Made by a program: the position numbers and the translations under genes. A DNA stretch of 51,324 nucleotides, taken from the sequence record OR896833.1; one strand, 5' to 3'. Shown here one piece after another: positions 20,937-41,861 of this stretch. Source of the stretch: Escherichia phage WaterSpirit. The notes under the pieces are model-generated. The model made no database searches. It saw only the letters and a list, made by a program, of their open reading frames with translations, and was not told where the DNA came from. Each line of letters opens with the position of its first letter. Position 1 is the first letter of the stretch.

Positions 20937-20978
20937 ACTATACACGATCTTGAACATCGAGTTTAGCAAAAAGTGCTA
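20937..20978 (-). promoter_or_regulatory. 18-bp element (TAGCACTTTTTGCTAAAC) + 18-nt spacer + TATAGT, upstream of lipoprotein operon
   Basis: Minus-sense read of 20961-20978 matches the conserved element; TATAGT at 20937-20942 (minus sense). Confidence 0.4.
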
Positions 20979-21360
20979 TTTGTTTTTTCTGTTCTCGCTT
21001 GTTATCAAATTCACACCTCCTTAATTTTAGCGCAAAACTTAAACACCAACTGGACAAACAATAGACAGTAAAATCATCTATATACATAAAAAATAAAGAG
21101 TTTATTTATCTATGTATCTATATTTGTTTTTATTTGTTCTCTGTGTTTCATTGGGTTGTGGTGTGTAGCATGTTTGGTGAGTGTATTGATTTATGTAATT
21201 ACAGATGCTCACTGGGTATTGCATATGTATGTATAAAGCTGAGTAGATACGCGAACGCGAGAACAGAAAAATAACAACCTTGATATTCAATCACTTATAA
21301 TCAGATTTTGTTCTTAAGCCCAAAAGAAGCGTTTAGAAAACAGAAAAAACAAATCACCTA

Positions 21361-21388
21361 TTGACTAAACGCATCAAATAGCTAAAAT
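21361..21388 (+). promoter_or_regulatory. Sigma70-like early promoter (TTGACT-16-TAAAAT)
   Basis: Direct read; homologous to the promoter at 42457-42484. Confidence 0.55.
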
Positions 21389-21417
21389 GCAGGCATACCA
21401 ACCAATGAGGGCTAATC

Positions 21418-22479
21418 ATGAATAAATTTATGGCTTACACCAGCGCAGAAATGAGCAACGAGCTTTATCACGATCCAGAAGCATGGACGGCTGAATATGT
21501 TAGCGGTTCAAGTCTGGCAGAGATTTACAGCACTTGCCCTGCTGCCTGGAAGTTCAAGCCGCGCGACGATAAGAGCAAGGCGCTCGTTTTCGGTACGCAG
21601 TCGCATACCAACTTCGAAAGCAAGGAGCTATTTGATAAAACTTACCGCCGTGCGCCAGCGCCGGAAGACTTCAAAGAGTTGATCACAAGCCAAACGGCAT
21701 TGGCTGCAAAGCTGAAATCTTTTGGCCTGAAAGGGACAAGCGGAAAGACTTACCCCGACCTTATCAAAATGATGGTTGATTGTGGCGAAGACCTTAACAT
21801 CATGTGGTTAATCGACATGATCGCAGAAAGCCAGGCCAGAGCCGACGGCGTACAGTTAATCGACGCGAAAGATTACGATGCTTGCGTTGCAATGCGCCAG
21901 GTTTTGGAATCAATACCGGAGCATAACGCTTGTATGAACAGCACAACGGCGCAGCGTGAATTATCGCTGTTCGGTGAAATTAACGGCGTAAAAGTTAAAG
22001 TGCGATGCGACCATGTAGACGTAGTGAAAAACGTCACTGCAACGCTGATTGATGGTTATGATGAAAAAGGTCAGCCCATTTGTCGTGATATTGTTTATCC
22101 AGAAGCAGTGGTGATCACAGACTACAAAACAACAATGAGCGCAAATCCTATGGAGTTTATGCGACTGGCTTACAACCACGGTTATTATTTGAAAATGGCA
22201 CTGCAACATGATTTATTCAGGAAGGCATATCCAGATGAGAAGCGACCTGTAGTTATGCGCCTGTTAGCACAGGAGAAGAAGGAGCCTTATCTACCGCTGG
22301 CTTTCCGCATGAACAGCGAGCAATTGAAAATAGGCCGAGTCCAGTATGTTAGCGTGATCCAACAGTTTGCTATGTGCCAGCAGCATGACGTATGGCCTGC
22401 GTATTCAAACGGTGAGCCGGAAGTTTGCTTGGATACGCCGGAATTTGTGCGCCGACAGTTCAAGCAGTATTTGATTTAA
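21418..22479 (+). CDS. Recombination exonuclease (PD-(D/E)xK-type, RecE/YqaJ-like)
   Basis: 353 aa; ITDYKT motif region typical of this nuclease fold; followed by Erf-like and SSB genes. Confidence 0.55.
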   Translation: MNKFMAYTSAEMSNELYHDPEAWTAEYVSGSSLAEIYSTCPAAWKFKPRDDKSKALVFGTQSHTNFESKELFDKTYRRAPAPEDFKELITSQTALAAKLKSFGLKGTSGKTYPDLIKMMVDCGEDLNIMWLIDMIAESQARADGVQLIDAKDYDACVAMRQVLESIPEHNACMNSTTAQRELSLFGEINGVKVKVRCDHVDVVKNVTATLIDGYDEKGQPICRDIVYPEAVVITDYKTTMSANPMEFMRLAYNHGYYLKMALQHDLFRKAYPDEKRPVVMRLLAQEKKEPYLPLAFRMNSEQLKIGRVQYVSVIQQFAMCQQHDVWPAYSNGEPEVCLDTPEFVRRQFKQYLI

Positions 22480-22560
22480 ACCGCACAAATAGCTAAACAA
22501 ATGATTATCGCGGCGTTATAATGCGCCGCGTAGGTTAACTAAACACAGAAGGAAGATATT

Positions 22561-22845
22561 ATGAATCAGCAAGAAAACCAGGCTTACCAGGCAACCATCA
22601 ACCATGTTAAACGTTTCGTTGATAAAGTGACGATTGCTACACACGAATTGCTGTACCCGCTTAACATCAACGAAAGCGATGAAATGCGCCAGTACATCAA
22701 AGACGTTCTAACCGCCGCAAACAACCTGATTCTTGAAGCGACTCTCACCAAAAAGAGCGCGGAACATGTAAAAATGATGGACGCAGCAGCAGAAGATTAC
22801 ATGCGCCATATGACCGAACGTAGCAACGAACAGGAGGCCAAATAA
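22561..22845 (+). CDS. Hypothetical protein (94 aa)
   Basis: ORF with RBS GGAAG; stop overlaps next start. Confidence 0.4.
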
Positions 22846-23498
22846 TGCAGCTATCAGAAAAGTTTGATCTGGTTCTTCCGGCGTTACATAAAGCACGTTC
22901 AATGTTCGTGAAGGTCAAAAAAGACCGCCAGAACAGCCACCTAAAAAACCGTTACGCCACGCTGGACGCTGTACTTGATGCAATCACGCCAGCGTTGATG
23001 GACAACGACCTTATGTTAATGCAGGACGGTAGCCGCATCGAAAATAACACGCTGCGAGTAGAAACAACAGTAATGCACACATCAGGTCAGTGGGTGAAAT
23101 ATTTCTTTGACATCCCAATCGTGAAGAATGATCCGCAAGGCGTAGGTTCTGCTTTCACCTATGGGCGACGTTATGCGGCGGCGGCAGCGTTCGGTTTAAG
23201 CCAGGCTGACGACGATGCGCAAATCGCTGTTAAGTCTGCGAACGACTGGAAACGTGATCTTGATAAATGCGAGTCTGTACCTGAATTGCAGGAAACATTC
23301 AAGAAAGCATGGAGCGCAAGCGATCCAGCAAGTAAACAGGTCGTTAAGGAACACTACGAGAAACGAAAAGCAGAAATCGAAATCTGCGGCGCTCGCGGTT
23401 TTAATCCAGCGCAACCAAAAAAGAATCTTGCAAGTGATTCCGTTGACACCGCAAAACCTGAGCAAGTACAATCGGCTAACATCACCGATTTTGAATAA
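22845..23498 (+). CDS. Erf-like single-strand annealing protein
   Basis: 217 aa; Erf-family-like central region (RYATLDAVL...[12 protein letters not shown]); position between exonuclease and SSB. Confidence 0.6.
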
Positions 23499-23539
23499 AA
23501 ACGGGGCGCTTGCGCCCCATTTTCATAGGAGAAAACAAA

Positions 23540-23995
23540 ATGCACGTAGTCACAGGAACGATCCGAAAAGAGCCATACACAAAAGAAGGACAAAGCAACT
23601 CCGGCGCTTACAAGATGTATATTGTGGAATTGTCGGAGTCTATTAAAGACAGACAGAGTGGTGAACGGATATATTCAAACTATAGCGCAACGTTCTTCGC
23701 ATCAAGCGATGCAATGCGTCAGTGGTATGATAACGCTTTGCAGGTTGGTAAAGTCGTTTCCATCTCTGCGGAAGTTCTACGCATCAACCAGCGCGAGCAT
23801 AACGGTAACAACTACGTAACGTTGCAGATGGAACAACCACGACTGGTATTCAGCCAGCGCACCGAAGGACAGCAGCAACAGCAGAATCAAGGTGGATGGG
23901 GGCAACCACAACAGCAACAGCAACAAAATACTCAACAGCAACCACAGCAAAGCAATCAGCCGCCAATGAATTTTGACGACGACATCCCATTCTGA
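23540..23995 (+). CDS. ssb: Single-stranded DNA-binding protein
   Basis: 151 aa from ATG 23540 (RBS GGAGAAAA); Gln/Gly-rich linker and acidic tip DDDIPF characteristic of SSB. Confidence 0.8.
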   Translation: MHVVTGTIRKEPYTKEGQSNSGAYKMYIVELSESIKDRQSGERIYSNYSATFFASSDAMRQWYDNALQVGKVVSISAEVLRINQREHNGNNYVTLQMEQPRLVFSQRTEGQQQQQNQGGWGQPQQQQQQNTQQQPQQSNQPPMNFDDDIPF

Positions 23996-28077: not shown

Positions 28078-28554
28078 TTAGCTATTTGTGCTTTTTGGTT
28101 CTTTGTAAAATATTCCGCCAGGTTCATAATCGCGCATCGTTACCACTCGCAACATCTCACGACGTTCGCAACGTGTAACAAGCGGCTTACCGTTTGAGTC
28201 GAATTTTAGATCCGGGCGACAGAATGATGCGCGATATCCTTTACAGCCATTATATTTGTAGTCATTATGCACGCGTTGTGCGCCCATCGCTGAAATCATC
28301 CCGCGCTTGCGCCACATATTTACAGTTTGCTGGGATACTCCCAATCGACGAGCCATATTTGCCACACCTCCGAAATACTCCAGAAGAATATCAAGGCGAG
28401 CGGTCAGTCCGGCTTTTACTTCTTCTTTCAGTATGTAATATCCGGTGCGCGGCTTGCGTGGCTTCTTGTCCTTGCCGCGTCGCGTTCCGTTGTTGCCGTT
28501 CAATGTTCTCTTGTCAATCTCACCAGTATAGGCCGCGATTCGCTTTTCTTTCAT
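28078..28554 (-). CDS. HTH DNA-binding protein (158 aa), basic N-terminus
   Basis: From ATG 28554 (RBS GAGGTG); helix-turn-helix-like segment VANMARRLGVSQQTVNMWRKRGMIS. Confidence 0.45.
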   Translation of the reverse strand: MKEKRIAAYTGEIDKRTLNGNNGTRRGKDKKPRKPRTGYYILKEEVKAGLTARLDILLEYFGGVANMARRLGVSQQTVNMWRKRGMISAMGAQRVHNDYKYNGCKGYRASFCRPDLKFDSNGKPLVTRCERREMLRVVTMRDYEPGGIFYKEPKSTNS

Positions 28555-28565
28555 TTTGCACCTCA

Positions 28566-28607
28566 TAGCACTTTTTGTTAAAAATAGCTTTTGAACGTGT
28601 GTATTAT
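28566..28607 (+). promoter_or_regulatory. 18-bp element + 18-nt spacer + TATTAT, upstream of helicase operon
   Basis: TAGCACTTTTTGTTAAAAA at 28566-28584; -10-like at 28602-28607. Confidence 0.4.
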
Positions 28608-28639
28608 ACACGCCTAATGGCTTATTAAAAGAGACAGTT

Positions 28640-31859: not shown

Positions 31860-31863
31860 TATC

Positions 31864-33998: not shown

Positions 33999-34020
33999 CC
34001 ATATAAAACATTAACTTATA

Positions 34021-34122: not shown

Positions 34123-34335
34123 ATGAAAGATTTTTTGAACGCTGCAACGTCAGGCACGGGTGGTGCATCAATCACTGGAGCAGTAACAGGACAAACTGCA
34201 ATTGCAATTGCCAGCTTCGTATTGATGGCTATTTTCGGCGTGTGGGGCGCTTATCTGCGGTGGCGTGATAGTAAAGCCTTCCAGAAGGCGCTTGATAGTG
34301 GTGACTTTAAAAAAGCAATTGAAATTAGGGGGTAA
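34123..34335 (+). CDS. Holin (single predicted TMD)
   Basis: 70 aa from ATG 34123 (RBS AGAGGA); hydrophobic segment IAIASFVLMAIFGVWGAYL, charged C-terminus; immediately upstream of endolysin. Confidence 0.5.
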   Translation: MKDFLNAATSGTGGASITGAVTGQTAIAIASFVLMAIFGVWGAYLRWRDSKAFQKALDSGDFKKAIEIRG

Positions 34336-34338
34336 ATA

Positions 34339-34827
34339 ATGAGCGCAAGAAATAGCGTCGTCGCCGTCGCCATCGGCGCTGCGCTTGCTCTTACTTCTCC
34401 ACTTCTTGAGGAAATCGAAGGGATCAGATACACGCCATATAAAGATATTGCCGGAGTCTGGACGGTATGCGCCGGAATCACCGGAAAAGATGTGATTATC
34501 GGCAAGACCTACACAAAGCGCGAATGCGATGCGCTACTGGCAAAACATATCAAGGTGGCGAAGGATGAAGTAGACAAGCGCGTGAAGGTTGAAATCCCAG
34601 CCACGATGAGAGCGGCGATGTATAGTTTCACTTTTAACGCTGGTGTGGGTGCATTCCGCAATTCGACAATGCTTAAACTGATTAATCAGGGCAGATTGCC
34701 GGAAGCGTGCCAGCAGTTATGGCGGTGGGATAAATTCACGAATCCTAAAACCGGAAAGAAAGAACGCTCTAAAGGTTTACGCAACCGTCGCGCGGTTGAG
34801 TTTAAATACTGCATGAGGGATCTGTAA
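34339..34827 (+). CDS. Endolysin (lysozyme, GH24-like)
   Basis: 162 aa; catalytic-region motif [23 protein letters not shown] typical of T4-type lysozymes. Confidence 0.8.
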
Positions 34828-35213
34828 TGAAACGAATCACAGCTATTGCACTGGCGGTTTTATTGTCCGGCTGTTCTGCTATAAGTCCAGTTGACCTACT
34901 GACCGGAAGTAAGCCAGATATTAGCGCCCAGGCTGGCGCGGAGAACGTGAAGCAGGCCGTTGGTATTACCGCAAAAAAAGACTCCAGCAGCAAGCAGGAA
35001 AACACCTTTAAAGAATCGAAGGTCGAAAAGGTGGATACATCCAGCAAGAAGACGGTTAAGGCATCAACCATTCAGGCCAATACCATCAATGCGGAAAAAA
35101 TCCATGTTGTGCAGGGTGATAACGGCAGATGGTACGACCCGATAATCGTATGTTTTGCCACATTCGCCGTAATGCTTGCTATCTACTTCTGGACAAAGAA
35201 AAAGGAGGCTTAA
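34827..35213 (+). CDS. Unimolecular spanin (lipoprotein with C-terminal TMD)
   Basis: 128 aa; lipobox LSGC at N-terminus and C-terminal hydrophobic segment IIVCFATFAVMLAIYFW; T1 gp11-type architecture. Confidence 0.6.
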   Translation: MKRITAIALAVLLSGCSAISPVDLLTGSKPDISAQAGAENVKQAVGITAKKDSSSKQENTFKESKVEKVDTSSKKTVKASTIQANTINAEKIHVVQGDNGRWYDPIIVCFATFAVMLAIYFWTKKKEA

Positions 35214-35230
35214 AGCCTCCTTTATTTTTA
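35203..35230. terminator. Bidirectional intrinsic terminator (AGGAGGCT-TAA-AGCCTCCT, flanked by A-run and T-run)
   Basis: Direct read between convergent lysis and early-left operons. Confidence 0.7.
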
Positions 35231-35446
35231 AGCATCAGGCCATTCGTGTGAATGATTTGTTAGCTTCTGGTTTTCCTGAAATTCAATATCATAATGACCA
35301 GCCATTACGCGTTTAGCCATTTCCTCAACATATCCGACAGCTTGCTCGTGAGTCCAGGAGTCGGCTGGGAATTTTGTAGGGATCTCAGTGGTAGTGCCGT
35401 TTTCATGTTTGATAATCAGCGCCACGGTAAAAAATTTGTTGCTCAT
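35228..35446 (-). CDS. Hypothetical protein (72 aa)
   Basis: ATG 35446 with RBS GAGGAAAACAAA. Confidence 0.35.
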   Translation of the reverse strand: MSNKFFTVALIIKHENGTTTEIPTKFPADSWTHEQAVGYVEEMAKRVMAGHYDIEFQENQKLTNHSHEWPDA

Positions 35447-35478
35447 TTTGTTTTCCTCATATTCGTTTCGATGAAACA

Positions 35479-35521
35479 AATATACCCGACTATAAGCCGG
35501 GCGTTTTAACAAAAAGTGCTA
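35479..35521 (-). promoter_or_regulatory. 18-bp element + 19-nt hairpin spacer + TATATT (minus sense)
   Basis: Minus-sense TAGCACTTTTTGTTAAAA at 35521-35504; TAG is stop of upstream gene. Confidence 0.45.
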
Positions 35522-35716
35522 TTCCATCCGCTTCACCGTAACCAGCAAGACACCATCATCATCACATAAATTGTGTTCGGAAGTGTCAAAGGCACGCATA
35601 TCCGATAAAAGCAGCGTAAGTAACGCATGAATGAAATCATCATGTGATATTGAATTTACGGCGCAAAATTTCAATATCTTGTCTATTAGACTTTGCTCCA
35701 AAGAGTTCATCATCAC
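35519..35716 (-). CDS. Hypothetical small protein (start uncertain)
   Basis: ORF overlapping the 3' end of 35640-36035; real start may be an internal ATG. Confidence 0.2.
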   Translation of the reverse strand: MMMNSLEQSLIDKILKFCAVNSISHDDFIHALLTLLLSDMRAFDTSEHNLCDDDGVLLVTVKRME

Positions 35717-36035
35717 TCATTTCTCCTATCCGTGCCATATCCCTTATCCATTCATTTTGCATTCCCTCAAAGGTGTAAAATTCGAATCCGAACGGCCTAC
35801 GGGCAGATCCGTCAATGCACCAAAATCTACCTTCAACGCCATCCAGATAACCAGCGCCCATCATTCTTGCGCAAAACTCTTTCGATAGCATGGAAGCGAA
35901 CATGCGCGGGGTGAATCCGGCCTGCTTCGCCAGGCGTTCACATTCTCTGTGCTGATAGATAAATTTTGCAATGTGCTGACGAGTAAACCAGTCGTAAGAC
36001 TCACACCATCTGTAGAGATCCAGAATGAACATCAT
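35640..36035 (-). CDS. Hypothetical protein (131 aa)
   Basis: ATG overlaps stop of upstream ATPase gene. Confidence 0.35.
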   Translation of the reverse strand: MMFILDLYRWCESYDWFTRQHIAKFIYQHRECERLAKQAGFTPRMFASMLSKEFCARMMGAGYLDGVEGRFWCIDGSARRPFGFEFYTFEGMQNEWIRDMARIGEMSDDELFGAKSNRQDIEILRRKFNIT

Positions 36036-37618
36036 TACCCCATTAACACAGGATTCACAAAAATAACACCATTAATAACACAAACGTAGTTTTTTTGCTC
36101 AAGCATCGGAAGCAGTTGCGATTCTATGCGCTTCATCACGCCAGCTTGCCCCAGGAAAGGTTTTACCTTGCGTGCTGCCTCATACAAAGCGCGGACATTC
36201 AATACGCCTTTATTTGCCTTACCGTGGCGGGTGATTAACTCAATCAGTTTTGACATCTCGGCATCATCACCAGCATAGCCGGACGCGTTCGCCGCGCTGA
36301 TATACGTTTTGCTCAATTCATGGAACATCAGCAAGGCTTCTTGCATCGTGTCAACGTCAATCTCTCTAGACTTTTGCGGGTATCCAGCAGGATTAAACCA
36401 ATTGCGTATCACATGCAGAACGGCAGCAATGCGGATCACCTGCTTATCCATTTTACCCAGCGCACCGCGTAGCATCGTATGCGAATACTTTCCGCCGTCG
36501 GCAAGATGCGGTTCCATATCCTGGCGTGCAATGTTCAGCACGCGCATTGCAGAACGGCTAACTTTCAGAGAAACGTTAATTTCGCTCATAATGTTATGCA
36601 CCAACTGAAAGTATTGCGCTTTCAATTCACCGTCTACTGGTTCGTAAGTTGAATCACCATTCTCATCAACAAATACACGCGTACCGATTAACGGCTGTTC
36701 GCGCACCAGTAGAAAACGCTCGCTTACACCGATGCCACGAGATCCTGCATCCATGATGCCATTAATGGTTTCATCCTGGGCGATAACACTCATACATCCA
36801 AGCGCAAAAAAACTCATGTTATTGTCTGCATTAGAACGGGCGATAGAAACATGGCCGTGATCCCATGCTTTTAACACAAGTTCGCTGTTAGTTTTGCGCT
36901 CGCTATTCGCGTAAGTCAGGCCAAGCAGACTGTTAATACTGGTTGCTTCATCAGAAATAACCGCGAAGTTTCCTTGTCTGTTATTTATCTTTGCTAATCC
37001 CTCTGGTGTGGTGTCGGAGACAGGGAAAACAACATCGCAAAGTTTGCTTAGTTTTTCTTCCAGATCTTCTTTTTCTTGATATAGAATCTCCATATCTGCG
37101 CCGGAGCGTTCGCTTTTCATCTCCTTTAGTAGTCCGGCAAGTTTTGCCTGTATCTTTTTTCGATCTTTCTTGCGTTGCTCGTTGATGCGATCAACCTCTG
37201 CAACCATAGGAGCAATAGCCAGACTGTTAATCGCGGATTTACCTGCCGACGGAGGCTGGCTTGTCACAACGTAAAGCGCGGTCGGCTGATCTGTTCCGTG
37301 GTAGTCAACTGTGAATCGACCAAGCATAGCGGCAGAAATACATCCGATAAAGTGCATGTAGGCCGATGATTCAGGGAATTGAACAGATCTCGCAAGATTG
37401 CGCGCCAGCTTACCAACTACATCAACATCATTCCCAAGTGAAATAACAGGGTAGCGGTCGTTACCGCCGTTAATATCTTCCACCTGGCCCCAATAGCTTG
37501 AAGATTGGCGGTATCCGTTGGCCTGAATGGATACACGAACAGGGGAAATACCTTGAGATTCGGCGGTTTCAATGATTTGTTTCGGTGATAACTGACTTGT
37601 TTCAAATGAAAAATTCAT
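36035..37618 (-). CDS. P-loop ATPase-like replication-associated protein (possibly DUF3987-type)
   Basis: 527 aa; Walker A-like PPSAGKS; strong RBS AGGAG; in early-left operon. Confidence 0.4.
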   Translation of the reverse strand: MNFSFETSQLSPKQIIETAESQGISPVRVSIQANGYRQSSSYWGQVEDINGGNDRYPVISLGNDVDVVGKLARNLARSVQFPESSAYMHFIGCISAAMLGRFTVDYHGTDQPTALYVVTSQPPSAGKSAINSLAIAPMVAEVDRINEQRKKDRKKIQAKLAGLLKEMKSERSGADMEILYQEKEDLEEKLSKLCDVVFPVSDTTPEGLAKINNRQGNFAVISDEATSINSLLGLTYANSERKTNSELVLKAWDHGHVSIARSNADNNMSFFALGCMSVIAQDETINGIMDAGSRGIGVSERFLLVREQPLIGTRVFVDENGDSTYEPVDGELKAQYFQLVHNIMSEINVSLKVSRSAMRVLNIARQDMEPHLADGGKYSHTMLRGALGKMDKQVIRIAAVLHVIRNWFNPAGYPQKSREIDVDTMQEALLMFHELSKTYISAANASGYAGDDAEMSKLIELITRHGKANKGVLNVRALYEAARKVKPFLGQAGVMKRIESQLLPMLEQKNYVCVINGVIFVNPVLMG

Positions 37619-37645
37619 TAAATCGACTCCTATTTGGTGCGGTGT

Positions 37646-37688
37646 ATGTTACCGCACCAATACTACCCTTATTTGTCAAAAAGTGCTA
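37646..37688 (-). promoter_or_regulatory. Variant 18-bp element (TAGCACTTTTTGACAAAT) + hairpin spacer, upstream of ATPase gene
   Basis: Minus-sense read; spacer hairpin GGTGCGGT/ACCGCACC; weak -10-like TAACAT. Confidence 0.3.
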
Positions 37689-37907
37689 TTTGATCCGCTC
37701 GATTGCAACCAGTAGGCGATCCGGCTGGCGGTCGCTGTAGCATTCTCCGGTTACATCATCCTTAAAAGTGAAGTAAAGCGACTTGTGATATGAATACCCA
37801 ATCAGCCAACCTTCCGCAGTTCTCTTTATTGGCCTGACAATATCGCCAGGCTTGAAAGTTGCAGTTGTGGCGTGAGTTACTTTATATCGGTATTCACTGC
37901 GGATCAT
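37686..37907 (-). CDS. Hypothetical protein (73 aa)
   Basis: ORF; stop TAG lies within the conserved element. Confidence 0.35.
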   Translation of the reverse strand: MIRSEYRYKVTHATTATFKPGDIVRPIKRTAEGWLIGYSYHKSLYFTFKDDVTGECYSDRQPDRLLVAIERIK

Positions 37908-38290
37908 GAATATTTGGCCTCAAAAAGATAAGAGTAACCAGCAGAGAATCCGACCTCCTCGCGGTAGAGCGTCCATCGGTCGCCGTCCTCATCGAAGACG
38001 TAACCAGCAACTGATCCAAGAACGCGACCCTGTTCGACCTGGTAACGCTTTCCAGCTTTAAAACTTTTTTTGGTTGCCATCCGGTGATCAACAAACGTAC
38101 ATAGAATCGTCTTTGCCTTGATAGTGCGGTATTCGTCCTGGTTGGCTGATTCCCACTTCGCGCCCTTAGCCAGCGCCTTAACCTGAAATTCCTCCATTTC
38201 GATCACGTCGTCGCTGCCAGCTACTTTTGTGTAAACAGTTTTATAGCGACCGTTCATCAATTTGTTGTCGGAATTGCGGATAACTTTCAT
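37904..38290 (-). CDS. Hypothetical protein (128 aa)
   Basis: ATG 38290 with RBS GGAGAAAA. Confidence 0.35.
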   Translation of the reverse strand: MKVIRNSDNKLMNGRYKTVYTKVAGSDDVIEMEEFQVKALAKGAKWESANQDEYRTIKAKTILCTFVDHRMATKKSFKAGKRYQVEQGRVLGSVAGYVFDEDGDRWTLYREEVGFSAGYSYLFEAKYS

Positions 38291-38322
38291 TTGATTTTCT
38301 CCAGTTGTTTTCGTTGAAACGC

Positions 38323-38365
38323 ATTATTCCCGACTCAAGGTCTGGCGTTTTAACAAAAAGTGCTA
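38323..38365 (-). promoter_or_regulatory. 18-bp element + 19-nt spacer + AATAAT (minus sense)
   Basis: Minus-sense TAGCACTTTTTGTTAAAA at 38365-38348; TAG is the methyltransferase-like gene stop. Confidence 0.4.
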
Positions 38366-39067
38366 TTTTGAGTTTGCCTCAAATACGGCGCGAGCAAATC
38401 CTCGCGGAGTGAGGGAGCGTATCATCTTTGTTCTGGATGATTTGCCACCAGTTTTAGCCCAGCCTGGGTTATCCTTCTCGGTTGGCAATACCAGTTTTCT
38501 CTGTGGAACGATAAAGCCGTTTCCAGTCCAAAGGCATGTTTTCTTAAAGTAGCAATCACGCGCCGGAATAATATCAGGGAAGTCTGGATGCTTATCATCT
38601 TCCGGCAGATAGCCAGCGTAATCGCACGGATGGAACGTATAATCAGGCTTTCGCCATAACGTTGACAACTTGCCAACCGGATTTTCGATCATGTAAGGAA
38701 CACCGAAATAATCAGCTATATCAGCCGCGATTCTGCAAGTGTCGGCGGCCTCATCCTGGAACGATGGATTCTCAAGGCGTTTTTTAGCCCAATGGCGAGA
38801 TCCGCTATTTGCAAGGTCAGTGCATGGTGGGAAGGCCATAATAAAATCAGGATTGCCCCACTCATTATTTATTGCCTTAACATAAAAAGCATCGTCAATC
38901 CAGACGTTAACGTATTCGATATTCTCATGCTTTATGCGCACTGACTGGTAATCACCGTGATCGCCACCGTCAGCATTAAAGCAAATGCACTTATAGCCAT
39001 TATCAGCCCAATCTTTAACGGCTTTACCAGATCCATCAAATAGGGAGAATATTAAACCTTTATACAT
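38363..39067 (-). CDS. DNA methyltransferase-like protein (C5-cytosine type, diverged)
   Basis: 234 aa from ATG 39067; FSLFDGSG (motif I-like), FPPCTDLANSG (PC motif), ENP (motif VI-like). Motif match is partial. Confidence 0.45.
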   Translation of the reverse strand: MYKGLIFSLFDGSGKAVKDWADNGYKCICFNADGGDHGDYQSVRIKHENIEYVNVWIDDAFYVKAINNEWGNPDFIMAFPPCTDLANSGSRHWAKKRLENPSFQDEAADTCRIAADIADYFGVPYMIENPVGKLSTLWRKPDYTFHPCDYAGYLPEDDKHPDFPDIIPARDCYFKKTCLWTGNGFIVPQRKLVLPTEKDNPGWAKTGGKSSRTKMIRSLTPRGFARAVFEANSK

Positions 39068-39077
39068 CGTCATTACC

Positions 39078-39302
39078 TCAAAACGGAAAACAGCGCGCAC
39101 AACCAGGATCGAAATCGCATCCACAATCATTAACAATCATAGTGGGATCTGCAAATATTGCGCTTGATTCAAGATCCATATCCATATCACCTAAAGCCTC
39201 ATCAAGAGTCTTAAATTTATATGCCACTTCAAGCGCCGCCTCTTTATTTAGTCCGGCATCTTCTGCCATTTGAAGGCGCTCAAAAAAACCGTCCTGACTC
39301 AT
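39078..39302 (-). CDS. Hypothetical acidic protein (74 aa) with C-terminal Cys cluster
   Basis: ORF; ATG overlaps upstream small ORF stop (ATGA). Confidence 0.35.
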   Translation of the reverse strand: MSQDGFFERLQMAEDAGLNKEAALEVAYKFKTLDEALGDMDMDLESSAIFADPTMIVNDCGCDFDPGCARCFPF

Positions 39303-39415
39303 CGCATAACTCCATTAATAACAGCCAAGATAATAGCCAGGCCAGCAGCAGTAACCAAAAATCCAACCGCGCCAATAATCGAATAAAAAAAGAAATCAAT
39401 AGCTTTATCTATCAT
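39299..39415 (-). CDS. Small hydrophobic protein (38 aa), below ORF-track cutoff
   Basis: RBS GAGGTGG; single predicted TMD; stop overlaps next ATG. Confidence 0.25.
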   Translation of the reverse strand: MIDKAIDFFFYSIIGAVGFLVTAAGLAIILAVINGVMR

Positions 39416-39457
39416 TTTCCACCTCATTTAAAAGGCGGCAAAACGCCGCCAGATTAA

Positions 39458-39685
39458 TTAAAGAGCGCGCCAACTTTGAATATAGAAAGCGTTTTCTTCC
39501 AGTAATTCTTTTACCTGATCTTTATTGTATTTGCGCACCTTACCGCCTGGATGGATACCAATAAGATAGCCGCCTTTGCCCTCGGTGATAGTGATTTGGC
39601 TAATTCCACAAGACTTATCAAGTTTTACAGCCACGCGGTGATGAGCGTCAATAGTTGACATAATGTTTAAAACTTTTGCTTTCAT
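39458..39685 (-). CDS. Hypothetical protein (75 aa)
   Basis: ORF in early-left operon. Confidence 0.35.
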   Translation of the reverse strand: MKAKVLNIMSTIDAHHRVAVKLDKSCGISQITITEGKGGYLIGIHPGGKVRKYNKDQVKELLEENAFYIQSWRAL

Positions 39686-39793
39686 TTAAATATCCTCAAT
39701 TGAAATATGAATGGCGTCGTGCTCTTTTTCCGTCGCCGCCGTAATGGTCATTTGCAACCGCCACCATCCAGGCATTTTTGAAAATAAATAGCC

Positions 39794-40006
39794 TCATTTC
39801 TTATTTTTCATCTTAAATTTATGGCCTGGAACACCAGCACCAATATATCCATCGTTGTATTCCATTAAATAAAGGTGAAGACCATTATCTGAAATTACAT
39901 GAGGATCTTCTTTGAGATTTCCCATTAGTGGATATTCTTTTTCGCGCGTGAATTTCCAAATTGAGTTATAAGTTTCTACGCATTTAAGTTTTAATTGCTT
40001 TGCCAT
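39794..40006 (-). CDS. Hypothetical protein (70 aa)
   Basis: ATG overlaps upstream stop. Confidence 0.35.
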   Translation of the reverse strand: MAKQLKLKCVETYNSIWKFTREKEYPLMGNLKEDPHVISDNGLHLYLMEYNDGYIGAGVPGHKFKMKNKK

Positions 40007-40203
40007 TAGATGATCTCCATGTATGTTTCAAAGCCATTTAACTTGAACAGGCCGTTTTCACATTTGCGAACGTTCCAAGTTAGCCCTGAGTGGTACGCCT
40101 CCATATCATCAAGGTCAATGGTGATTTCAGCACCTTTCTTAAACAAACCTTTTTCGTGAGACTTGTCGCGCTTGATAACCTTAACGTCAACCTGCGTTTC
40201 CAT
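40006..40203 (-). CDS. Hypothetical protein (65 aa)
   Basis: ATG 40203 with RBS GAGGAATTGAAA; 5' leader paralogous to that at 40701. Confidence 0.35.
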   Translation of the reverse strand: METQVDVKVIKRDKSHEKGLFKKGAEITIDLDDMEAYHSGLTWNVRKCENGLFKLNGFETYMEII

Positions 40204-40234
40204 TTTCAATTCCTCGTTCGTTGTCGATGCGCAT

Positions 40235-40277
40235 ACTATACCAATCAGCCGCGCATCGTTTTTAACAAAAAGTGCTA
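40235..40277 (-). promoter_or_regulatory. 18-bp element + hairpin spacer + TATAGT (minus sense)
   Basis: Minus-sense TAGCACTTTTTGTTAAAA 40277-40260; GATGCGC/GCGCATC stem with TATAGT in loop. Confidence 0.45.
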
Positions 40278-40559
40278 TTCTTCAATGATTCCGGTTAGCG
40301 ACACAATTGTGCCAGTCCGGCGGCGATAGCGGCGCATTACAACCGGAAGGTTTTCACCGCTTTGATGCCCGAAGCAGATCGGCATCATTCCATTTTCTGA
40401 ATACCATGCGTCAAACTCACGATCCCGCACTGGCCTGAATTGCCACGCGCAGATAAAGCCGTTTGCATCGCGCGTGATAAATTTATAAATGTTCGGCAAT
40501 TGTAGTTTGATGCCTTCGAAATCCACCTCGTCGCTATAGCTGCGAAACTTAAAACTCAT
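40275..40559 (-). CDS. Hypothetical protein (94 aa from internal ATG; ORF extends to 40610)
   Basis: RBS TGGAG 9 nt upstream of ATG 40559; stop TAG lies in the conserved element. Confidence 0.3.
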   Translation of the reverse strand: MSFKFRSYSDEVDFEGIKLQLPNIYKFITRDANGFICAWQFRPVRDREFDAWYSENGMMPICFGHQSGENLPVVMRRYRRRTGTIVSLTGIIEE

Positions 40560-40701
40560 AGTCAACAACTCCAAATTCATTGACGATTTGCGCCTTGTAG
40601 AATCCGCCATTTTTCGCCAGGTTGTAACAAGCGGCTACGGTTTCAAATTCGCGTGCTTCCGGCTGGCTGTTTTCGTGTTCCCAGGTAATCAGAGTAACCA
40701 T
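40549..40701 (-). CDS. Small hypothetical protein (50 aa), below ORF-track cutoff
   Basis: ATG 40701 preceded by the same leader/RBS module (GCGAGGATTTGAAA) as gene 40006-40203. Confidence 0.3.
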   Translation of the reverse strand: MVTLITWEHENSQPEAREFETVAACYNLAKNGGFYKAQIVNEFGVVDYEF

Positions 40702-40734
40702 TTTCAAATCCTCGCATTCGTTGTCGATGCGTGT

Positions 40735-40777
40735 AATGTACAGGAATACGAGGATTGAGTTTTAACAAAAAGTGCTA
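40735..40777 (-). promoter_or_regulatory. 18-bp element + 19-nt spacer + TACATT (minus sense)
   Basis: Minus-sense read of 40760-40777. Confidence 0.4.
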
Positions 40778-40778
40778 T

Positions 40779-41072
40779 TTAGTCCAGTAATTCGATTTCA
40801 CGTTCTCCAGTTAACGGATCTACAAGCCAGAATCCGAGCGGTTCGCCGTAAACACCGCCATAGAATCCAAGCGCCGCCAGATCTTCACCTTTAACGAATA
40901 CCAGGTTTCCGCTACGGCTTACGTGAGACACGTTAACGATAACCGGAAAGGTGCGATCCTTAAATGCAGGCATCAGGGCGTAACATCCTTTATTGAGCAA
41001 ACGTGCTTTGCGCTTTACTGGAATAGGTGCATTGATACGTGCCATCAGTTGATTCTCCCATACAGATCGCAA
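40779..41072 (-). CDS. Hypothetical protein (97 aa)
   Basis: ORF in early-left operon. Confidence 0.35.
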   Translation of the reverse strand: MRSVWENQLMARINAPIPVKRKARLLNKGCYALMPAFKDRTFPVIVNVSHVSRSGNLVFVKGEDLAALGFYGGVYGEPLGFWLVDPLTGEREIELLD

Positions 41073-41281
41073 ACTTCGTTGATAAAGCAGCGTTGCGCCT
41101 CCTTATCTTGTTTCTCAAACATCGCACGGCACTCATAGCGGTGATTATGCACAATGACTACAACCATATTTTCCTGCGCTAACGGGTGACGCGCGGACGC
41201 GTCGCAGATTGAAACATCCATACCCATCTCACGGGCTTTCTTGATCACATTAAGCATTTTTTCTTCTCCTGCAATAAGCAA
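41045..41281 (-). CDS. Hypothetical protein (78 aa)
   Basis: ORF in early-left operon. Confidence 0.3.
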   Translation of the reverse strand: MLIAGEEKMLNVIKKAREMGMDVSICDASARHPLAQENMVVVIVHNHRYECRAMFEKQDKEAQRCFINEVCDLYGRIN

Positions 41282-41511
41282 ACATCATTGATAAAATCAG
41301 CGCGGCCTTTAATGTTGCTGATGTGGAAAGTCTTTTCAGCGTACAGGCCATCACCTTCAATCACGATCATTACGCGAGTCGGTTTATTCACGGGCGCACA
41401 TGAAAAGAGTGGGCGCACCGGAAGAAATTTAGTAGTCACATCCAGGTTAGCCCTGGCCGCCCTGCAAAATGCCTCCGCCAGATCTAAATCATTTTCGGTA
41501 ATCACCGCCAT
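41245..41511 (-). CDS. Hypothetical protein (88 aa)
   Basis: ORF in early-left operon. Confidence 0.3.
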   Translation of the reverse strand: MAVITENDLDLAEAFCRAARANLDVTTKFLPVRPLFSCAPVNKPTRVMIVIEGDGLYAEKTFHISNIKGRADFINDVCLLQEKKKCLM

Positions 41512-41783
41512 TACTTCTTGATCTCCTCACTGATAAATTTCAGCACCCGGCGCAAGAAAACTTCGTTGTTGATAGTCGCTGGCAATTCTTCTTTCACCTC
41601 TTGCGGCAGATAGATATTGCCGTGCCAGGTCAAGCAATCGTAGTTGATACGATAAGAGCAAAGCCACTCGCAATCGTTATCTGCTTCCCAAATGCAGAGT
41701 TGCAGAACATCGCCTAAGTTCTCAACAGTCAGATCCAGACCGTGACGCTTAGCGAAATTGAAAGTGGTTTTGCTGATGTTCAT
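41511..41783 (-). CDS. Hypothetical protein (90 aa), first gene of early-left operon
   Basis: RBS GGAGATAGCAAATG. Confidence 0.35.
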   Translation of the reverse strand: MNISKTTFNFAKRHGLDLTVENLGDVLQLCIWEADNDCEWLCSYRINYDCLTWHGNIYLPQEVKEELPATINNEVFLRRVLKFISEEIKK

Positions 41784-41818
41784 TTGCTATCTCCTGAGCG
41801 GTTTGTTTCGATGTGTGT

Positions 41819-41861
41819 AATGTACCCGATCAGAATGATTCGGTTTTAACAAAAAGTGCTA
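41819..41861 (-). promoter_or_regulatory. 18-bp element + 19-nt spacer + TACATT (minus sense), upstream of early-left operon
   Basis: Minus-sense read of 41844-41861. Confidence 0.4.

What the first reader, a model, noticed from the sequence alone, without database searches (positions are those of the whole stretch)
20937..41861. Same element-spacer-hexamer architecture drives minus-strand early genes and the lipoprotein operon
Read on the minus strand, the same element sits upstream of TATATT (35479), AATAAT (38323), TATAGT (40235), TACATT (40735 and 41819) and TATAGT (20937, lipoprotein operon) with 18-19 nt spacers. Again the TAG is usually the upstream gene's stop codon. The 5' leaders after three copies are paralogous (40203-40231, 40701-40731, 41790-41843), suggesting duplicated promoter-leader-gene cassettes in the early-left region.
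Basis: seen in the sequence. Interest (0 to 1): 0.65.

Follow-up and report, generated by a model that had tools for sequence, protein, structure and literature searches.

The report
Repeated promoter cassettes of a T1-like phage
The repeated 18-base element really does sit a fixed 18-19 bases upstream of a promoter-like hexamer in front of the leftward early genes and the lipoprotein operon of this T1-like coliphage; the repeat itself was already published with no function assigned. It looks like a family-wide special promoter class, often fused to a hairpin that ends or protects the upstream message.

Summary
The window is a complete Drexlerviridae (Warwickvirus) genome, 98% identical to phage MatMar.

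**Observation confirmed.**
- All six coordinates are correct. TAGCACTTTTTGTTAAAA occurs 16 times at up to 3 mismatches, against 0.14 expected.

**The repeat is already published.** The phage TLS paper (2024) describes it as a 21-nt direct repeat and leaves its function open.

**New evidence, from 96 copies in five genomes:**
- A TAnnnT hexamer lies exactly 19 nt downstream in 60 copies.
- G is frequent at -14 and A at the predicted +1. The start codon follows 51-60 nt after the element.
- The element spans -49 to -32 and is centred at -42. Its TTGyTA lies 21-22 bp from the -10, too far to serve as a -35.
- These are therefore very probably promoters that depend on an unidentified reader placed like a class II activator.

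**Embedded hairpin.**
- Cassettes that follow a co-oriented gene also carry a compensatory, sense-strand hairpin. Cassettes at the head of an operon lack it.
- This makes them composite promoter/terminator cassettes, like the T4-phage promoter-early stem-loop cassettes (PeSLs).
- They also mark recombination breakpoints between related phages.

**Correction.** The promoter-leader units are paralogous, but the genes behind them are not.

No transcript data exist for this family.

The parts
41781..41864 (-). Head cassette of the leftward early cluster. DR 41844-41861, hexamer TACATT 41819-41824, predicted +1 A at 41812, ATG at 41783 (90-aa gene).
   Evidence: No co-oriented gene lies upstream. 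Fold is weak (-5.3 kcal/mol). DR, hexamer and leader are conserved in Phunderstruck and tuinn.
40699..40780 (-). Internal cassette. DR 40760-40777, TACATT 40735-40740, predicted +1 A at 40728, ATG at 40701 (50-aa DUF7170 gene). The upstream gene stops with TAA one base before the DR.
   Evidence: This is one edge of the 500-bp module absent from MatMar.
40201..40280 (-). Internal cassette. DR 40260-40277 (its TAG is the stop of the 111-aa gene), TGg TATAGT 40235-40240, predicted +1 A at 40228, ATG at 40203 (65-aa Pfam Gp54-family gene). A GCGC...GCGC hairpin flanks the -10.
   Evidence: This is the other edge of the 500-bp module.
38288..38368 (-). Internal cassette. DR 38348-38365 (its TAG is the stop of the methyltransferase gene), AATAAT 38323-38328, ATG at 38290 (128-aa gene). 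The spacer hairpin CCAGAC/GTCGGG is imperfect in this genome.
   Evidence: Orthologous stems are CCCGAC/GTCGGG (MatMar), CCAGGT/ACCTGG (Phunderstruck, tuinn) and CCGGAT/ATCCGG (TLS), which is fully compensatory.
37616..37691 (-). Variant DR TAGCACTTTTTGACAAAT 37671-37688 (its TAG is the stop of the 73-aa gene), TAACAT 37646-37651, ATG at 37618 (527-aa helicase). The hairpin GGTGCGG/CCGCACC flanks the hexamer.
   Evidence: The orthologous stem in Phunderstruck and tuinn is GGGCCGT/ACGGCCC.
35444..35524 (-). Internal cassette. DR 35504-35521 (its TAG is the upstream stop), spacer hairpin GCCCGGC-TTA-TAGTCGGGT 35484-35502, TATATT 35479-35484, predicted +1 A at 35472, ATG at 35446 (72-aa gene).
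   Evidence: (MFE -12.0, z -3.8). Also listed as terminator-like by the consensus scan.
20903..20981 (-). Head cassette of the lipoprotein (Cor-like) operon. DR TAGCACTTTTTGCTAAAC 20961-20978, 18-nt spacer, TATAGT 20937-20942, ATG at 20905 (89-aa lipoprotein with an LTGC lipobox).
   Evidence: No hairpin (MFE -2.1). DR and hexamer are conserved in relatives.
28552..28642 (.). Divergent control region. DR 28566-28583(+) and TATTAT 28602-28607 lie upstream of the helicase operon (ATG 28640). The minus-strand TATAAT 28603-28608 of a conventional sigma-70-like promoter for the regulator gene (ATG 28554) overlaps the plus-strand hexamer, and the regulator's 5' leader runs through the DR.
   Evidence: The same arrangement is present in T1, TLS (published P57), Rtp and KP36.
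28078..28554 (-). Conserved 158-aa Cro-like helix-turn-helix 'transcriptional regulator' (T1 gp23 family). It is the only core DNA-binding candidate that could read the element.
31083..48431 (+). Plus-strand copies of the same cassette. DR starts (hexamer in brackets): 31083 (CATAAT), 32122 (CATAAT), 43240 (CATAAT), 44853 (TATAAT), 46082 (TATAGT), 47042 (TATAAT), 48389 (TATTAT). The end coordinate is the last base of the 48389 hexamer.
   Evidence: All follow a co-oriented gene. All but 43240 contain a stable hairpin (MFE -8 to -15 kcal/mol).
40280..40779 (-). 500-bp two-gene module present here and absent from phage MatMar, bounded on both sides by copies of the DR-promoter-leader cassette.
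   Evidence: The two alignment segments overlap on the 82-bp cassette in MatMar (39921-40002).
42457..42484 (+). Conventional, perfect-consensus sigma-70 promoter (TTGACA-16-TATAAT) that heads the rightward early cluster. This is the contrasting promoter class.

Best explanation
Each site is a compact, reusable transcription cassette of about 80 bp. It has up to two functions.

**1. A phage-class promoter read by host sigma-70 RNA polymerase.**
- The core is a -10 hexamer (TAnnnT, often preceded by G at -14 or a full TGn), a 6-nt discriminator, and a start at a conserved A.
- A short leader of about 25-30 nt (AUCGA(A/C)A(A/C)...GAGGA) then runs to the ATG.
- There is no usable -35.
- Instead the invariant element aaTAGCAC-nnn-TTGyTAAAA occupies -49 to -32.
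- The element holds an imperfect dyad, TAGCA-N5-TGyTA, centred at -42. That is the position from which class II activators recruit polymerase.
- I infer that a sequence-specific protein docks there and supplies the missing -35 contact.
- The most likely reader is the phage's own conserved Cro-like regulator. It is made from a conventional promoter that overlaps the DR promoter of the helicase operon.
- That would place the leftward cluster, the helicase and methylase operons and the lipoprotein operon in a delayed-early class. The few operons with canonical promoters would fire first.

**2. A 3' hairpin for the upstream message.**
- Where a cassette follows a co-oriented gene, the only unconstrained positions are used to encode a stem-loop. 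These are the spacer (-31 to -16) and the discriminator (-6 to -1).
- The stem-loop acts on read-through RNA from the upstream gene, as a leaky terminator or a 3'-end protector.
- Because the cassettes are repeated, they also act as recombination points that swap small early genes.

**Shown:** the anatomy, spacing, conservation, compensatory stems, the difference between head and internal cassettes, and breakpoints at cassettes.

For: **Promoter core.**
- The fixed 19-nt spacing to TAnnnT holds in 60 of 96 copies, plus 7 at 18 nt. Information content peaks at G-14, A-11, T-7 and A+1.
- The distance from element end to ATG is 51-60 nt in 13 of 15 window cassettes checked. The exceptions are 46082 (88 nt) and 43240 (no start found).
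- A-11 and T-7 are kept in orthologues while flanking bases vary.
- Several hexamers are weak (TACATT, AATAAT), lack TG and have no -35, so they need help from upstream.

**Head cassettes.** These have the element and hexamer but no hairpin. Internal cassettes have all three.

| Cassette class | n | Mean MFE (kcal/mol) | Mean z | Share at or below -7 |
|---|---|---|---|---|
| Head | 14 | -2.5 | -0.09 | 0% |
| Internal | 56 | -10.3 | -2.98 | 77% |

Mann-Whitney p = 2e-7.

**Hairpin.**
- Cognate spacer and downstream-arm combinations fold at -8.78 kcal/mol against -4.56 for chimeras (z -11).
- The sense strand folds better than the antisense strand (-8.8 against -6.3, p = 6e-9), with 12.7% G-U pairs.
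- Orthologous stems are fully compensatory.

**Recombination.** 6 of 13 breakpoints between the window and MatMar fall inside cassettes, which occupy 4.1% of the genome (p = 6e-6). The 500-bp module is bounded by two cassettes.

**Two promoter classes.** Conventional promoters exist only at the head of the rightward cluster (12 of 12 consensus matches), at recE and at the regulator gene. The same three were reported for TLS.

**Regulator.**
- It is the only core helix-turn-helix protein.
- Its start codon abuts a reverse copy of the element in all five genomes.
Against: - No transcript 5' or 3' ends have been mapped in any Drexlerviridae. None was found in the searched literature.
- The base-contacting positions of the regulator's recognition helix vary among T1, TLS, Rtp, KP36 and this phage, yet the element is invariant. 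It is unchanged even in a Vibrio phage whose regulator is only 51% identical. Cro proteins normally co-vary with their operators (PMC6649833).
- The dyad is imperfect. G3 is invariant but its partner, position 13, is C or T.
- In this window only 2 of 17 hexamers have a full TGn.
- Three copies face against the local genes (6183, 9934, 26998). Two of them (6183, 26998) have no -10 at the standard distance.
- Type II hairpins are not followed by a U-tract, so they are not canonical terminators.
Confidence: 0.62

Rival explanations
1. Host RNA polymerase alone reads the whole cassette. The element is an unusual upstream promoter element: an A/T tract bound by the alpha C-terminal domains, with TTAAAA or TTGyTA as a displaced -35. 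The promoters are then constitutive and immediate-early, and no phage protein is needed.
For:
- The central 5 bp is always A/T-rich (TTTTT, GAATT, AAATT, TAATT).
- The last six bases, TTAAAA, match 4 of 6 positions of TTGACA at a 19-bp spacer.
- Head cassettes must fire somehow to express whole clusters.
Against: - The most conserved part, (A)ATAGCAC, is not A/T-rich and matches no known alpha or sigma-70 contact.
- TTGyTA is 21-22 bp from the -10, about half a helical turn out of register.
- The exact element-plus-hexamer pattern was not seen in Enterobacterales chromosomes among 185,579 species genomes. The 112 hits were scattered singles in unrelated, mostly AT-rich taxa (80 rows shown).
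- The phage keeps a separate class of perfectly conventional promoters.
Confidence: 0.18
2. A conserved host transcription factor docks on the element. The best candidate found is Lrp. Its SELEX consensus yAGhAwATTwTdCTr has the same 5+5+5 layout.
For: - TAGCACTTTTTGCTA matches the Lrp consensus at 13 of 15 positions, including both half-sites YAGHA and TDCTR. The consensus is quoted in PMC5554404.
- Lrp is nearly invariant across the enterobacterial and Vibrio hosts (own knowledge), which would explain the invariance of the element.
Against: - This is a resemblance to a degenerate consensus, not a binding test.
- The GAA class matches only 11 of 15 positions.
- Lrp is dispensable, and classical T1-resistant mutants map to tonA and tonB only (own knowledge), so it cannot be essential.
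- Lrp is scarce in rich medium, where T1-like phages grow well (own knowledge).
- Lrp is not known as a -42 activator.
Confidence: 0.08
3. The element is an operator for shut-off, not activation. It would be a stoperator-like or Cro-like site. The cassettes are intrinsically active early promoters, and the Cro-like regulator binds at -42 to silence them (and its own gene) later.
For: - The regulator's helix-turn-helix domain most resembles Cro proteins and restriction-modification controller proteins, though weakly (Foldseek E about 0.02, TM to target about 0.7).
- A reverse copy of the element lies in the regulator's own leader, which suits autorepression.
- The TLS authors raised the stoperator analogy.
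- Reverse copies abut the start of the tail fibre gene and the tail chaperone gene.
Against: - A repressor site needs no rigid 19-nt register with the -10, yet the register is strict.
- Without the element these promoters have no -35 and often a weak -10, so there would be little to repress.
- The recognition-helix problem applies here too.
Confidence: 0.08
4. The cassette works mainly at the RNA level on one long read-through transcript. The element would be a small hairpin or A/U-rich site (nut/boxB-like, or an RNase E site) followed by a second hairpin. The '+1' would then be a processing site, not a start.
For: - Positions 1-5 and 11-15 of the element can pair. The only variable paired position is C or U opposite an invariant G, giving G-C or G-U.
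- The downstream hairpin is selected on the sense strand.
- The regulator has an invariant, disordered, arginine-rich N-terminal arm.
- The element usually starts at the upstream stop codon.
Against: - The element and hexamer are equally conserved at head cassettes, where no co-oriented upstream transcription is expected (28566, 41844, 20961 and their equivalents in four other genomes). The helicase operon has no other possible promoter in its 86-bp intergenic region.
- An RNA site does not explain TAnnnT with G-14 at a fixed distance.
- The 5-bp stem is very weak.
Confidence: 0.04

Closest known systems
21-nt direct repeats of phage TLS (Kropinski and co-workers, Phage 2024; PMC11447400). The authors say similar repeats exist in T1, Rtp and Rogue1.
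   Same: It is the same sequence, aaATAGCACnnnTTGnTAAAA. It has the same orientation with transcription, the same distance to start codons (about 76 nt from repeat start) and the same TTT and GAA subclasses.
   Different: That paper left the function open (stoperator, enhancer site or UP element). It did not report the fixed 19-nt distance to a -10 hexamer, the G-14 or A+1 signals, the -42 dyad, the embedded compensatory hairpins, or the recombination breakpoints.
PeSLs (promoter-early stem-loop cassettes) of T4-like phages (PMC2839356, PMC4122927)
   Same: Both are small composite terminator/promoter cassettes repeated between small early genes of unknown function. Both lie at the edges of insertions and deletions between close relatives.
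   Different: - The sequences are unrelated.
- The phage family differs (siphovirus Drexlerviridae).
- Here the hairpin is interleaved with the promoter, in the spacer or around the -10.
- Here the promoter depends on a long invariant upstream element instead of a -35.
Promoter-coupled terminators in bacteria (Fletcher et al., bioRxiv 2026, 10.64898/2026.08.19.745784)
   Same: A terminator stem-loop lies inside the upstream part of the next promoter, with the T-rich tail running into the -10. This matches the 'type I' cassettes such as 35504, 32122 and 48389.
   Different: - In that work the stem-loop DNA doubles as the -35. Here the stem sits between a separate conserved element and the -10.
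- Most hairpins here (type II) enclose the -10 and lack a U-tract.
Class II activator-dependent and extended -10 promoters (CRP or FNR at -41.5; lambda cI at PRM; T4 MotA/AsiA middle promoters; Mu Mor/C). Based on own knowledge.
   Same: - The -35 is absent or unusable.
- A conserved protein-sized site overlaps the -35 region and is centred at -42.
- The register with the -10 is strict.
- A TG/G-14 extension is frequent.
- In phages, such a class separates delayed-early or middle genes from immediate-early ones.
   Different: - No activator has been identified.
- The element matches none of the CRP, FNR, MotA-box (centred at -30) or Mor/C sites.
- The dyad is imperfect and the flanks are asymmetric.
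Mycobacteriophage L5 stoperators (own knowledge; cited as an analogy in PMC11447400)
   Same: Both are many copies of an asymmetric site, oriented with transcription, often at gene ends.
   Different: - L5 is temperate, and its sites bind the prophage repressor to block elongation.
- Those sites have no fixed relation to a -10.
- This phage family is virulent, and its sites are in rigid register with a -10 hexamer.

Membership tests
Drexlerviridae 21-nt direct repeat (TLS DR family) | Sequence consensus aaATAGCACnnnTTGnTAAAA | tested here: met
   There are 19 copies at up to 2 mismatches in the specified positions. Nine are exact 18-mers, of which five lie on the minus strand within the finding's range. 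The consensus is quoted from PMC11447400.
Drexlerviridae 21-nt direct repeat (TLS DR family) | Intergenic, pointing in the direction of transcription, about 76 nt upstream of start codons | tested here: met
   16 of 19 copies are co-oriented with the downstream gene. The distance from element end to ATG is 51-60 nt, which is 69-78 nt from the element start.
Sigma-70 promoter (conventional -35/-10) | -10 hexamer with A at position 2 and T at position 6 | tested here: met
   nAnnnT lies at 18-20 nt in 17 of 19 window copies (one, the GATTTT at 1567, is probably chance). TAnnnT lies at exactly 19 nt in 60 of 96 copies across five genomes.
Sigma-70 promoter (conventional -35/-10) | -35 hexamer 16-18 bp upstream of the -10 | tested here: not met
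   TTGyTA is 21-22 bp upstream. The bases at the canonical -35 position are AAAAnn.
Extended -10 promoter | TG at -15/-14 | tested here: inconclusive
   Full TGn occurs in 2 of 17 window copies but in 7-9 of 16-18 in T1, TLS, Rtp and KP36. G-14 occurs in 11 of 17 window copies and in 67-89% of copies in those four genomes.
Any promoter | Mapped primary 5' ends or in vitro transcription | not testable with these tools
   No transcript-end data for Drexlerviridae were found in the paper library.
Class II activator-dependent promoter | Activator site centred near -41.5 in fixed register with the -10 | tested here: met
   The dyad centre (element position 8) is at -42 when T-12 is at element position 38. 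The spacing is invariant at 19 nt.
Class II activator-dependent promoter | An identified activator that binds the site | tested here: inconclusive
   The Cro-like regulator is core, and its gene is wired to a copy of the element. Its recognition helix varies while the element does not.
Composite promoter/terminator cassette (PeSL or promoter-coupled terminator) | A stem-loop physically fused to the promoter and selected as a structure | tested here: met
   Mean MFE is -8.8 kcal/mol against -3.8 for shuffles. Cognate against chimera gives z -11. Orthologous stems are compensatory. The hairpin is present only when a co-oriented gene lies upstream.
Composite promoter/terminator cassette (PeSL or promoter-coupled terminator) | Cassettes lie at indel or recombination boundaries between related phages | tested here: met
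   6 of 13 breakpoints fall in cassettes (p = 6e-6). The 500-bp module 40280-40779 is bounded by two cassettes.
Composite promoter/terminator cassette (PeSL or promoter-coupled terminator) | Termination or 3'-end formation at the stem-loop | not testable with these tools
   Only type I hairpins are followed by a U-rich tail (for example 35504). Type II hairpins are followed by AUCGAAAC.
Sigma-54 promoter | GG at -24 and GC at -12, exactly 10 bp apart (TGGCAC-N5-TTGC; own knowledge) | tested here: not met
   The element reads TAGCAC-N3-TTGC. That is AG rather than GG, and the spacing is 2 bp too short. A sigma-70-type -10 follows instead.
Lrp binding site | Match to yAGhAwATTwTdCTr | tested here: met
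   13 of 15 positions match for the TTT/TTGCTA form, 12 of 15 for TTGTTA and 11 of 15 for the GAA form. The consensus is from PMC5554404.
Lrp binding site | Lrp binding or Lrp-dependent expression | not testable with these tools
   No data are available. The indirect arguments against it rest on own knowledge.
L5-type stoperator | Repressor of a temperate phage, with sites independent of promoter elements | tested here: not met
   No integrase or repressor module appears in the annotation of the near-identical MatMar. The sites are in strict register with a -10.

The most novel reading that the evidence does not exclude
Drexlerviridae run most of their non-structural genes from a private promoter class. 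In it, a dedicated reader bound at -42 replaces -35 recognition by sigma-70.

- This would be a previously uncharacterised sigma-70 redirection system in one of the oldest model phage families.
- The same 80-bp cassette would also encode the upstream RNA's 3' hairpin and serve as a recombination joint.
Probability: 0.3. Interest if true: 0.7.

Novelty: new variant of a known kind. Interest (0 to 1): 0.5.

Why it matters
T1-like phages are classic, abundant and used in therapy collections, yet their transcription programme is essentially unmapped. Annotation pipelines find only 3-20 'sigma-70 promoters' per genome and miss this class.

If the cassettes are promoters with a dedicated reader, three things follow:
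- The temporal classes are defined: three conventional immediate-early promoters against about 15 element-dependent ones.
- A portable 80-bp regulatory part becomes available.
- The question of who reads TAGCAC...TTGyTAAAA becomes directly testable.

The interleaving of a structured RNA 3' element into the free positions of a promoter is a clear case of overlapping codes. The position of cassettes at indel edges explains how small early genes are shuffled in this family.

Tried and rejected
- **Element as a -35 box.** Rejected. TTGyTA is 21-22 bp from the hexamer, and no alternative -10 lies 17 bp downstream of it.
- **Sigma-54 promoter.** Rejected on the AG and on spacing (N3 rather than N5).
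- **Sigma-32 and sigma-28 consensus, and CRP, FNR, Fis, IHF, ArcA and OmpR sites.** Compared from memory only. No convincing match, so not pursued.
- **Gene paralogy behind the cassettes.** blastp found nothing significant.
- **Non-coding RNA behind the 43240 cassette.** No tRNA, no Rfam family, and the fold is no better than shuffles (z +1.3).
Poorly conserved (37-86% identity), and the next gene encodes a lipoprotein.
- **Co-variation of the element with the regulator in distant relatives.** The element is unchanged in Vibrio phage Vc1 and in a metagenomic contig whose regulators are 47-51% identical.
- **N15 Cro operator comparison.** The paper gave no usable sequence.
- **Collecting many orthologues of the 38348 site from IMG/VR.** Only TLS-like copies were returned.
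- **Genome-wide scan of 185,579 species genomes for element plus hexamer.** 112 scattered single hits in unrelated, mostly AT-rich taxa, with no enterobacterial regulon seen in the 80 rows shown.
- **Automatic head-versus-internal classification by open reading frames.** Noisy. It was replaced by a list curated from the annotation tables.
- **Searches for transcriptome or start-site data on Drexlerviridae.** None found.
- **Non-Drexlerviridae phage VLCpiS13b.** It shares only a short helix-turn-helix segment with the regulator, so it was uninformative.

Full report
**What the window is.**
The 51,324-bp window is a whole genome of a T1-like siphovirus (Drexlerviridae, Tempevirinae, Warwickvirus). 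It is 98% identical to Escherichia phage MatMar. Gene order and strand blocks match T1, TLS and Rtp:
- structural genes on the plus strand up to about 19.7 kb;
- a leftward lipoprotein operon;
- recombination, replication and lysis modules;
- a leftward cluster of small genes at 35.2-41.8 kb;
- a rightward cluster of small genes from 42.5 kb.

**Check of the observation.**
Each lies 18-19 nt after the last A of TAGCACTTTTTGTTAAAA on the minus strand.
- The 18-mer has 16 matches at up to 3 mismatches, against 0.14 expected from shuffles.
- A degenerate scan (TAGCACnnnTTGnTAAAA, up to 2 mismatches) finds 19 copies.
- A seventh minus-strand copy in the finding's range was missed: 37671-37688, the TTGACA variant. 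It is followed after 19 nt by TAACAT and sits in front of the 527-aa helicase gene.
- The stop-codon remark is right for cassettes that follow a gene. The TAG closes the upstream frame at 35504, 37671, 38348 and 40260. A TAA sits one base upstream at 40760. 41844 and 20961 have no co-oriented gene upstream.

**The element is already in the literature.**
- The 2024 re-annotation of phage TLS describes a 21-nt direct repeat, aaATAGCACnnnTTGnTAAAA. [quoted passage not shown] It has A, T and G subclasses, and the authors say it also occurs in T1, Rtp and Rogue1.
- They found only three conventional sigma-70 promoters. They left the repeat's role open: stoperator, enhancer site or UP element (PMC11447400).
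- Other T1-like genome papers rely on generic promoter predictors and do not mention it.

**Evidence that it is part of a promoter.**
I scanned this genome plus T1, TLS, Rtp and KP36, which gave 96 copies.
- Anchored on the element, TAnnnT lies exactly 19 nt downstream in 60 copies and at 18 nt in 7. Any other offset has about 1-2.
- Information content outside the element peaks at four places:
  - G two bases before the hexamer (-14, 1.0 bit; with T-15 this makes the extended -10 motif);
  - A-11;
  - T-7;
  - an A seven bases after the hexamer (0.8 bit), which is the expected start point.
- Full TGn occurs in about half of the copies in the four reference phages but in only 2 of 17 here. G-14 occurs in 11 of 17 here.
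- From the end of the element to the start codon is 51-60 nt in 13 of the 15 window cassettes I checked. This implies a leader of about 25-30 nt that begins AUCGA(A/C)A(A/C) and ends in a Shine-Dalgarno sequence.
- In orthologous cassettes of relatives that are 83-92% identical, the element, A-11 and T-7, and the leader start are kept while the spacer changes.
- Three window cassettes stand where a promoter is logically required: 41844 (first gene of the leftward cluster), 20961 (lipoprotein operon) and 28566. For 28566, the 86-bp gap between the divergent regulator and helicase genes consists of nothing but the cassette.

**The element is not a -35 box.**
- With T-12 at element position 38, the element spans -49 to -32.
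- Its TTGyTA lies 21-22 bp from the hexamer, half a helical turn too far. The bases at the canonical -35 position are AAAAnn.
- Several hexamers here are weak (TACATT twice, AATAAT) and lack TG. The upstream element must therefore supply most of the recruitment.
- Positions 1-5 (TAGCA) and 11-15 (TGCTA, or TGTTA in most copies here) are reverse complements around an always A/T-rich centre. The dyad centre is at -42.
- That is the geometry of class II activation (own knowledge of CRP, FNR and cI at PRM).
- The strict 19-nt register argues for a stereospecific contact with polymerase and against a free-standing operator.

**Who reads the element is unresolved.**

*In favour of the phage's own regulator:*
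- The only core helix-turn-helix protein is the 158-aa 'transcriptional regulator' (28078-28554, minus strand). It is found in 848 phage records, nearly all T1-like, and is 56-67% identical to the T1, TLS, Rtp and KP36 homologues.
- Its modelled helix-turn-helix domain (pLDDT 86) weakly resembles all-alpha Cro proteins and restriction-modification controller proteins.
- In all five genomes its start codon abuts a reverse copy of the element. A conventional sigma-70 promoter for it overlaps, hexamer on hexamer, the DR promoter of the helicase operon. This looks like a switch.

*Against the regulator:*
- The canonical base-contacting residues of its recognition helix differ among the five phages, although the element is identical.
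- The element is unchanged in Vibrio phage Vc1 and in a distant metagenomic relative whose regulators are 47-51% identical.
- Cro proteins usually co-vary with their operators (PMC6649833).
- The invariant residues lie instead in a disordered basic N-terminal arm and in the C-terminal part.

*Host alternatives:*
- The element matches the E. coli Lrp SELEX consensus yAGhAwATTwTdCTr at 13 of 15 positions, including both half-sites. This is a resemblance only, and Lrp cannot be essential for T1 growth (own knowledge).
- Polymerase alone does not explain the invariant ATAGCAC.
- The exact element-plus-hexamer pattern does not appear as a host motif. It gave 112 scattered single hits in unrelated, mostly AT-rich taxa among 185,579 species genomes.

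**A second function is interleaved in the cassette.**
- The stretch from the end of the element to +1 folds far better than shuffles: mean -8.8 against -3.8 kcal/mol, with 57% of cassettes at z below -2.
- Two layouts occur:
  - Type I is a stem-loop within the spacer that abuts the hexamer, often with a GNRA or UUCG loop. T1's record annotates several of these as terminators, and the window's 35504 cassette is flagged by the scan.
  - Type II has arms that flank the hexamer, with the 3' arm ending at -1.
- Stem sequences differ between cassettes and co-vary within them. Cognate against chimeric combinations give -8.78 against -4.56 kcal/mol (z -11).
- Orthologous sites show complete compensatory replacement:
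  - at the 38348 site, CCCGAC/GTCGGG, CCAGGT/ACCTGG and CCGGAT/ATCCGG;
  - at the 37671 site, GGTGCGG/CCGCACC and GGGCCGT/ACGGCCC.
- The sense strand folds better than the antisense strand (p = 6e-9), with 12.7% G-U pairs. The selected molecule is therefore RNA read through from upstream.
- The decisive comparison is between head and internal cassettes. The 14 cassettes that head a transcription unit have no hairpin (mean -2.5 kcal/mol, z -0.09). The 56 internal ones do (mean -10.3, z -2.98; 77% at or below -7; p = 2e-7).
- The element and hexamer are present in both groups. The promoter and hairpin functions are therefore separable. The hairpin serves the upstream message, as a leaky terminator or a 3' protector.
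- Its arms occupy exactly the promoter positions that are free to vary.

**Cassettes as recombination joints.**
- Compared with MatMar, this genome has an extra 500-bp two-gene module (40280-40779). It is bounded by two copies of the cassette, and the two alignment segments overlap on the single 82-bp cassette in MatMar.
- Overall, 6 of 13 alignment breakpoints fall inside cassettes, which cover 4.1% of the genome (p = 6e-6).
- The first genes behind the cassettes are not paralogous. They are small proteins of unknown function, including a DUF7170 protein and a Pfam Gp54 'antiviral trigger' homologue.
- What is duplicated is therefore the regulatory cassette, not promoter-gene units.

**Comparison with known systems.**
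- The sequence is the published Drexlerviridae repeat.
- The architecture is closest to the PeSL composite terminator/promoter cassettes that mediate shuffling in T4-like phages (PMC2839356, PMC4122927).
- It also resembles the promoter-coupled terminators recently described in bacteria (bioRxiv 10.64898/2026.08.19.745784).
- The recruitment geometry resembles class II and extended -10 promoters and phage middle-promoter systems.
- It differs from all of these in three ways:
  - the long invariant element at -42 has no known reader;
  - the hairpin is woven around the -10;
  - the same unit recurs across a whole family, including phages of Vibrio.

**Verdict.**
The promoter reading is well supported by sequence statistics but unproven. 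The 'duplicated gene cassette' reading is only partly right. The element itself is not new. What remains open, and testable, is who reads it.

Noticed in passing
window 6183-6200(-), 9934-9951(-), 26998-27015(+): Three copies of the element point against the local genes. Two abut the ribosome-binding site of an opposite-strand late gene: the tail assembly chaperone (ATG 9969) and the tail fibre (ATG about 26980). Each of those two is followed by the bidirectional terminator of the neighbouring gene. The same reverse copies occur in T1 (15068-, 18832-, 34903+), TLS (15024-) and Rtp (33763+). They could be antisense promoters, roadblocks or leader elements.
   Followed up: partly
window 28602-28608: The -10 hexamers of the helicase DR promoter (TATTAT, plus strand) and of a conventional promoter for the regulator gene (TATAAT, minus strand) overlap almost completely. 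The regulator's leader is transcribed through the element. The arrangement is conserved in T1, TLS, Rtp and KP36 and looks like a genetic switch.
   Followed up: partly
window 42457-42484(+): A perfect-consensus sigma-70 promoter (TTGACA-16-TATAAT) heads the rightward early cluster. Its spacer contains the left half of the element (aaATAGCAC). A partial version (aaATAGC) is also present in two other Warwickvirus genomes, but not in T1, TLS, Rtp or KP36.
   Followed up: partly
window 41862-42456: A non-coding region of about 600 bp lies between the divergent early clusters. It has repeated GCGAACAG-type motifs in both orientations, a 13-nt perfect inverted repeat (42116-42128 and 42160-42172) and AT-rich tracts. 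It may be an origin or packaging region.
   Followed up: partly
window 43240-43484(+): This DR cassette is followed by about 195 nt with no start codon before the 60-aa ORF at 43485, unlike the 25-30 nt leaders elsewhere. The stretch has no tRNA or Rfam match and folds no better than shuffles (z +1.3).
   Followed up: yes
window 1567-1640(+): The GAA-class copy after the large terminase gene is atypical. TATAAT lies only 5 nt after the element, followed by a strong terminator hairpin (GGCTGGatttttCCAGCC plus a T-run) before the portal gene.
   Followed up: no
window 28078-28554(-), residues 1-38: The regulator's most invariant residues (D14, R16, N19, G20, N21, N22, R26, R33) lie in a basic N-terminal arm that is predicted to be disordered. 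Its helix-turn-helix recognition helix is variable. That is unusual for a sequence-specific Cro-like protein.
   Followed up: partly
element positions 1-15, all copies: RNAalifold pairs positions 1-5 with 11-15 of the element itself. The one variable paired position is C or U opposite an invariant G, so pairing is kept as G-C or G-U. The stem is only 5 bp, so the significance is unclear.
   Followed up: partly
window 40006-40203(-) and 42979-43242(+): The 65-aa gene behind the 40260 cassette belongs to Pfam PF25180, 'phage antiviral trigger protein Gp54'. The second gene of the immediate-early operon encodes a small lipoprotein (lipobox LTGC).
   Followed up: no
L075 and L080 (NZ_VSMK01000220.1): A 46.7-kb contig filed under Nitratidesulfovibrio liaohensis carries two exact element-plus-hexamer matches. 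It is probably a T1-like phage contaminant in that assembly.
   Followed up: no
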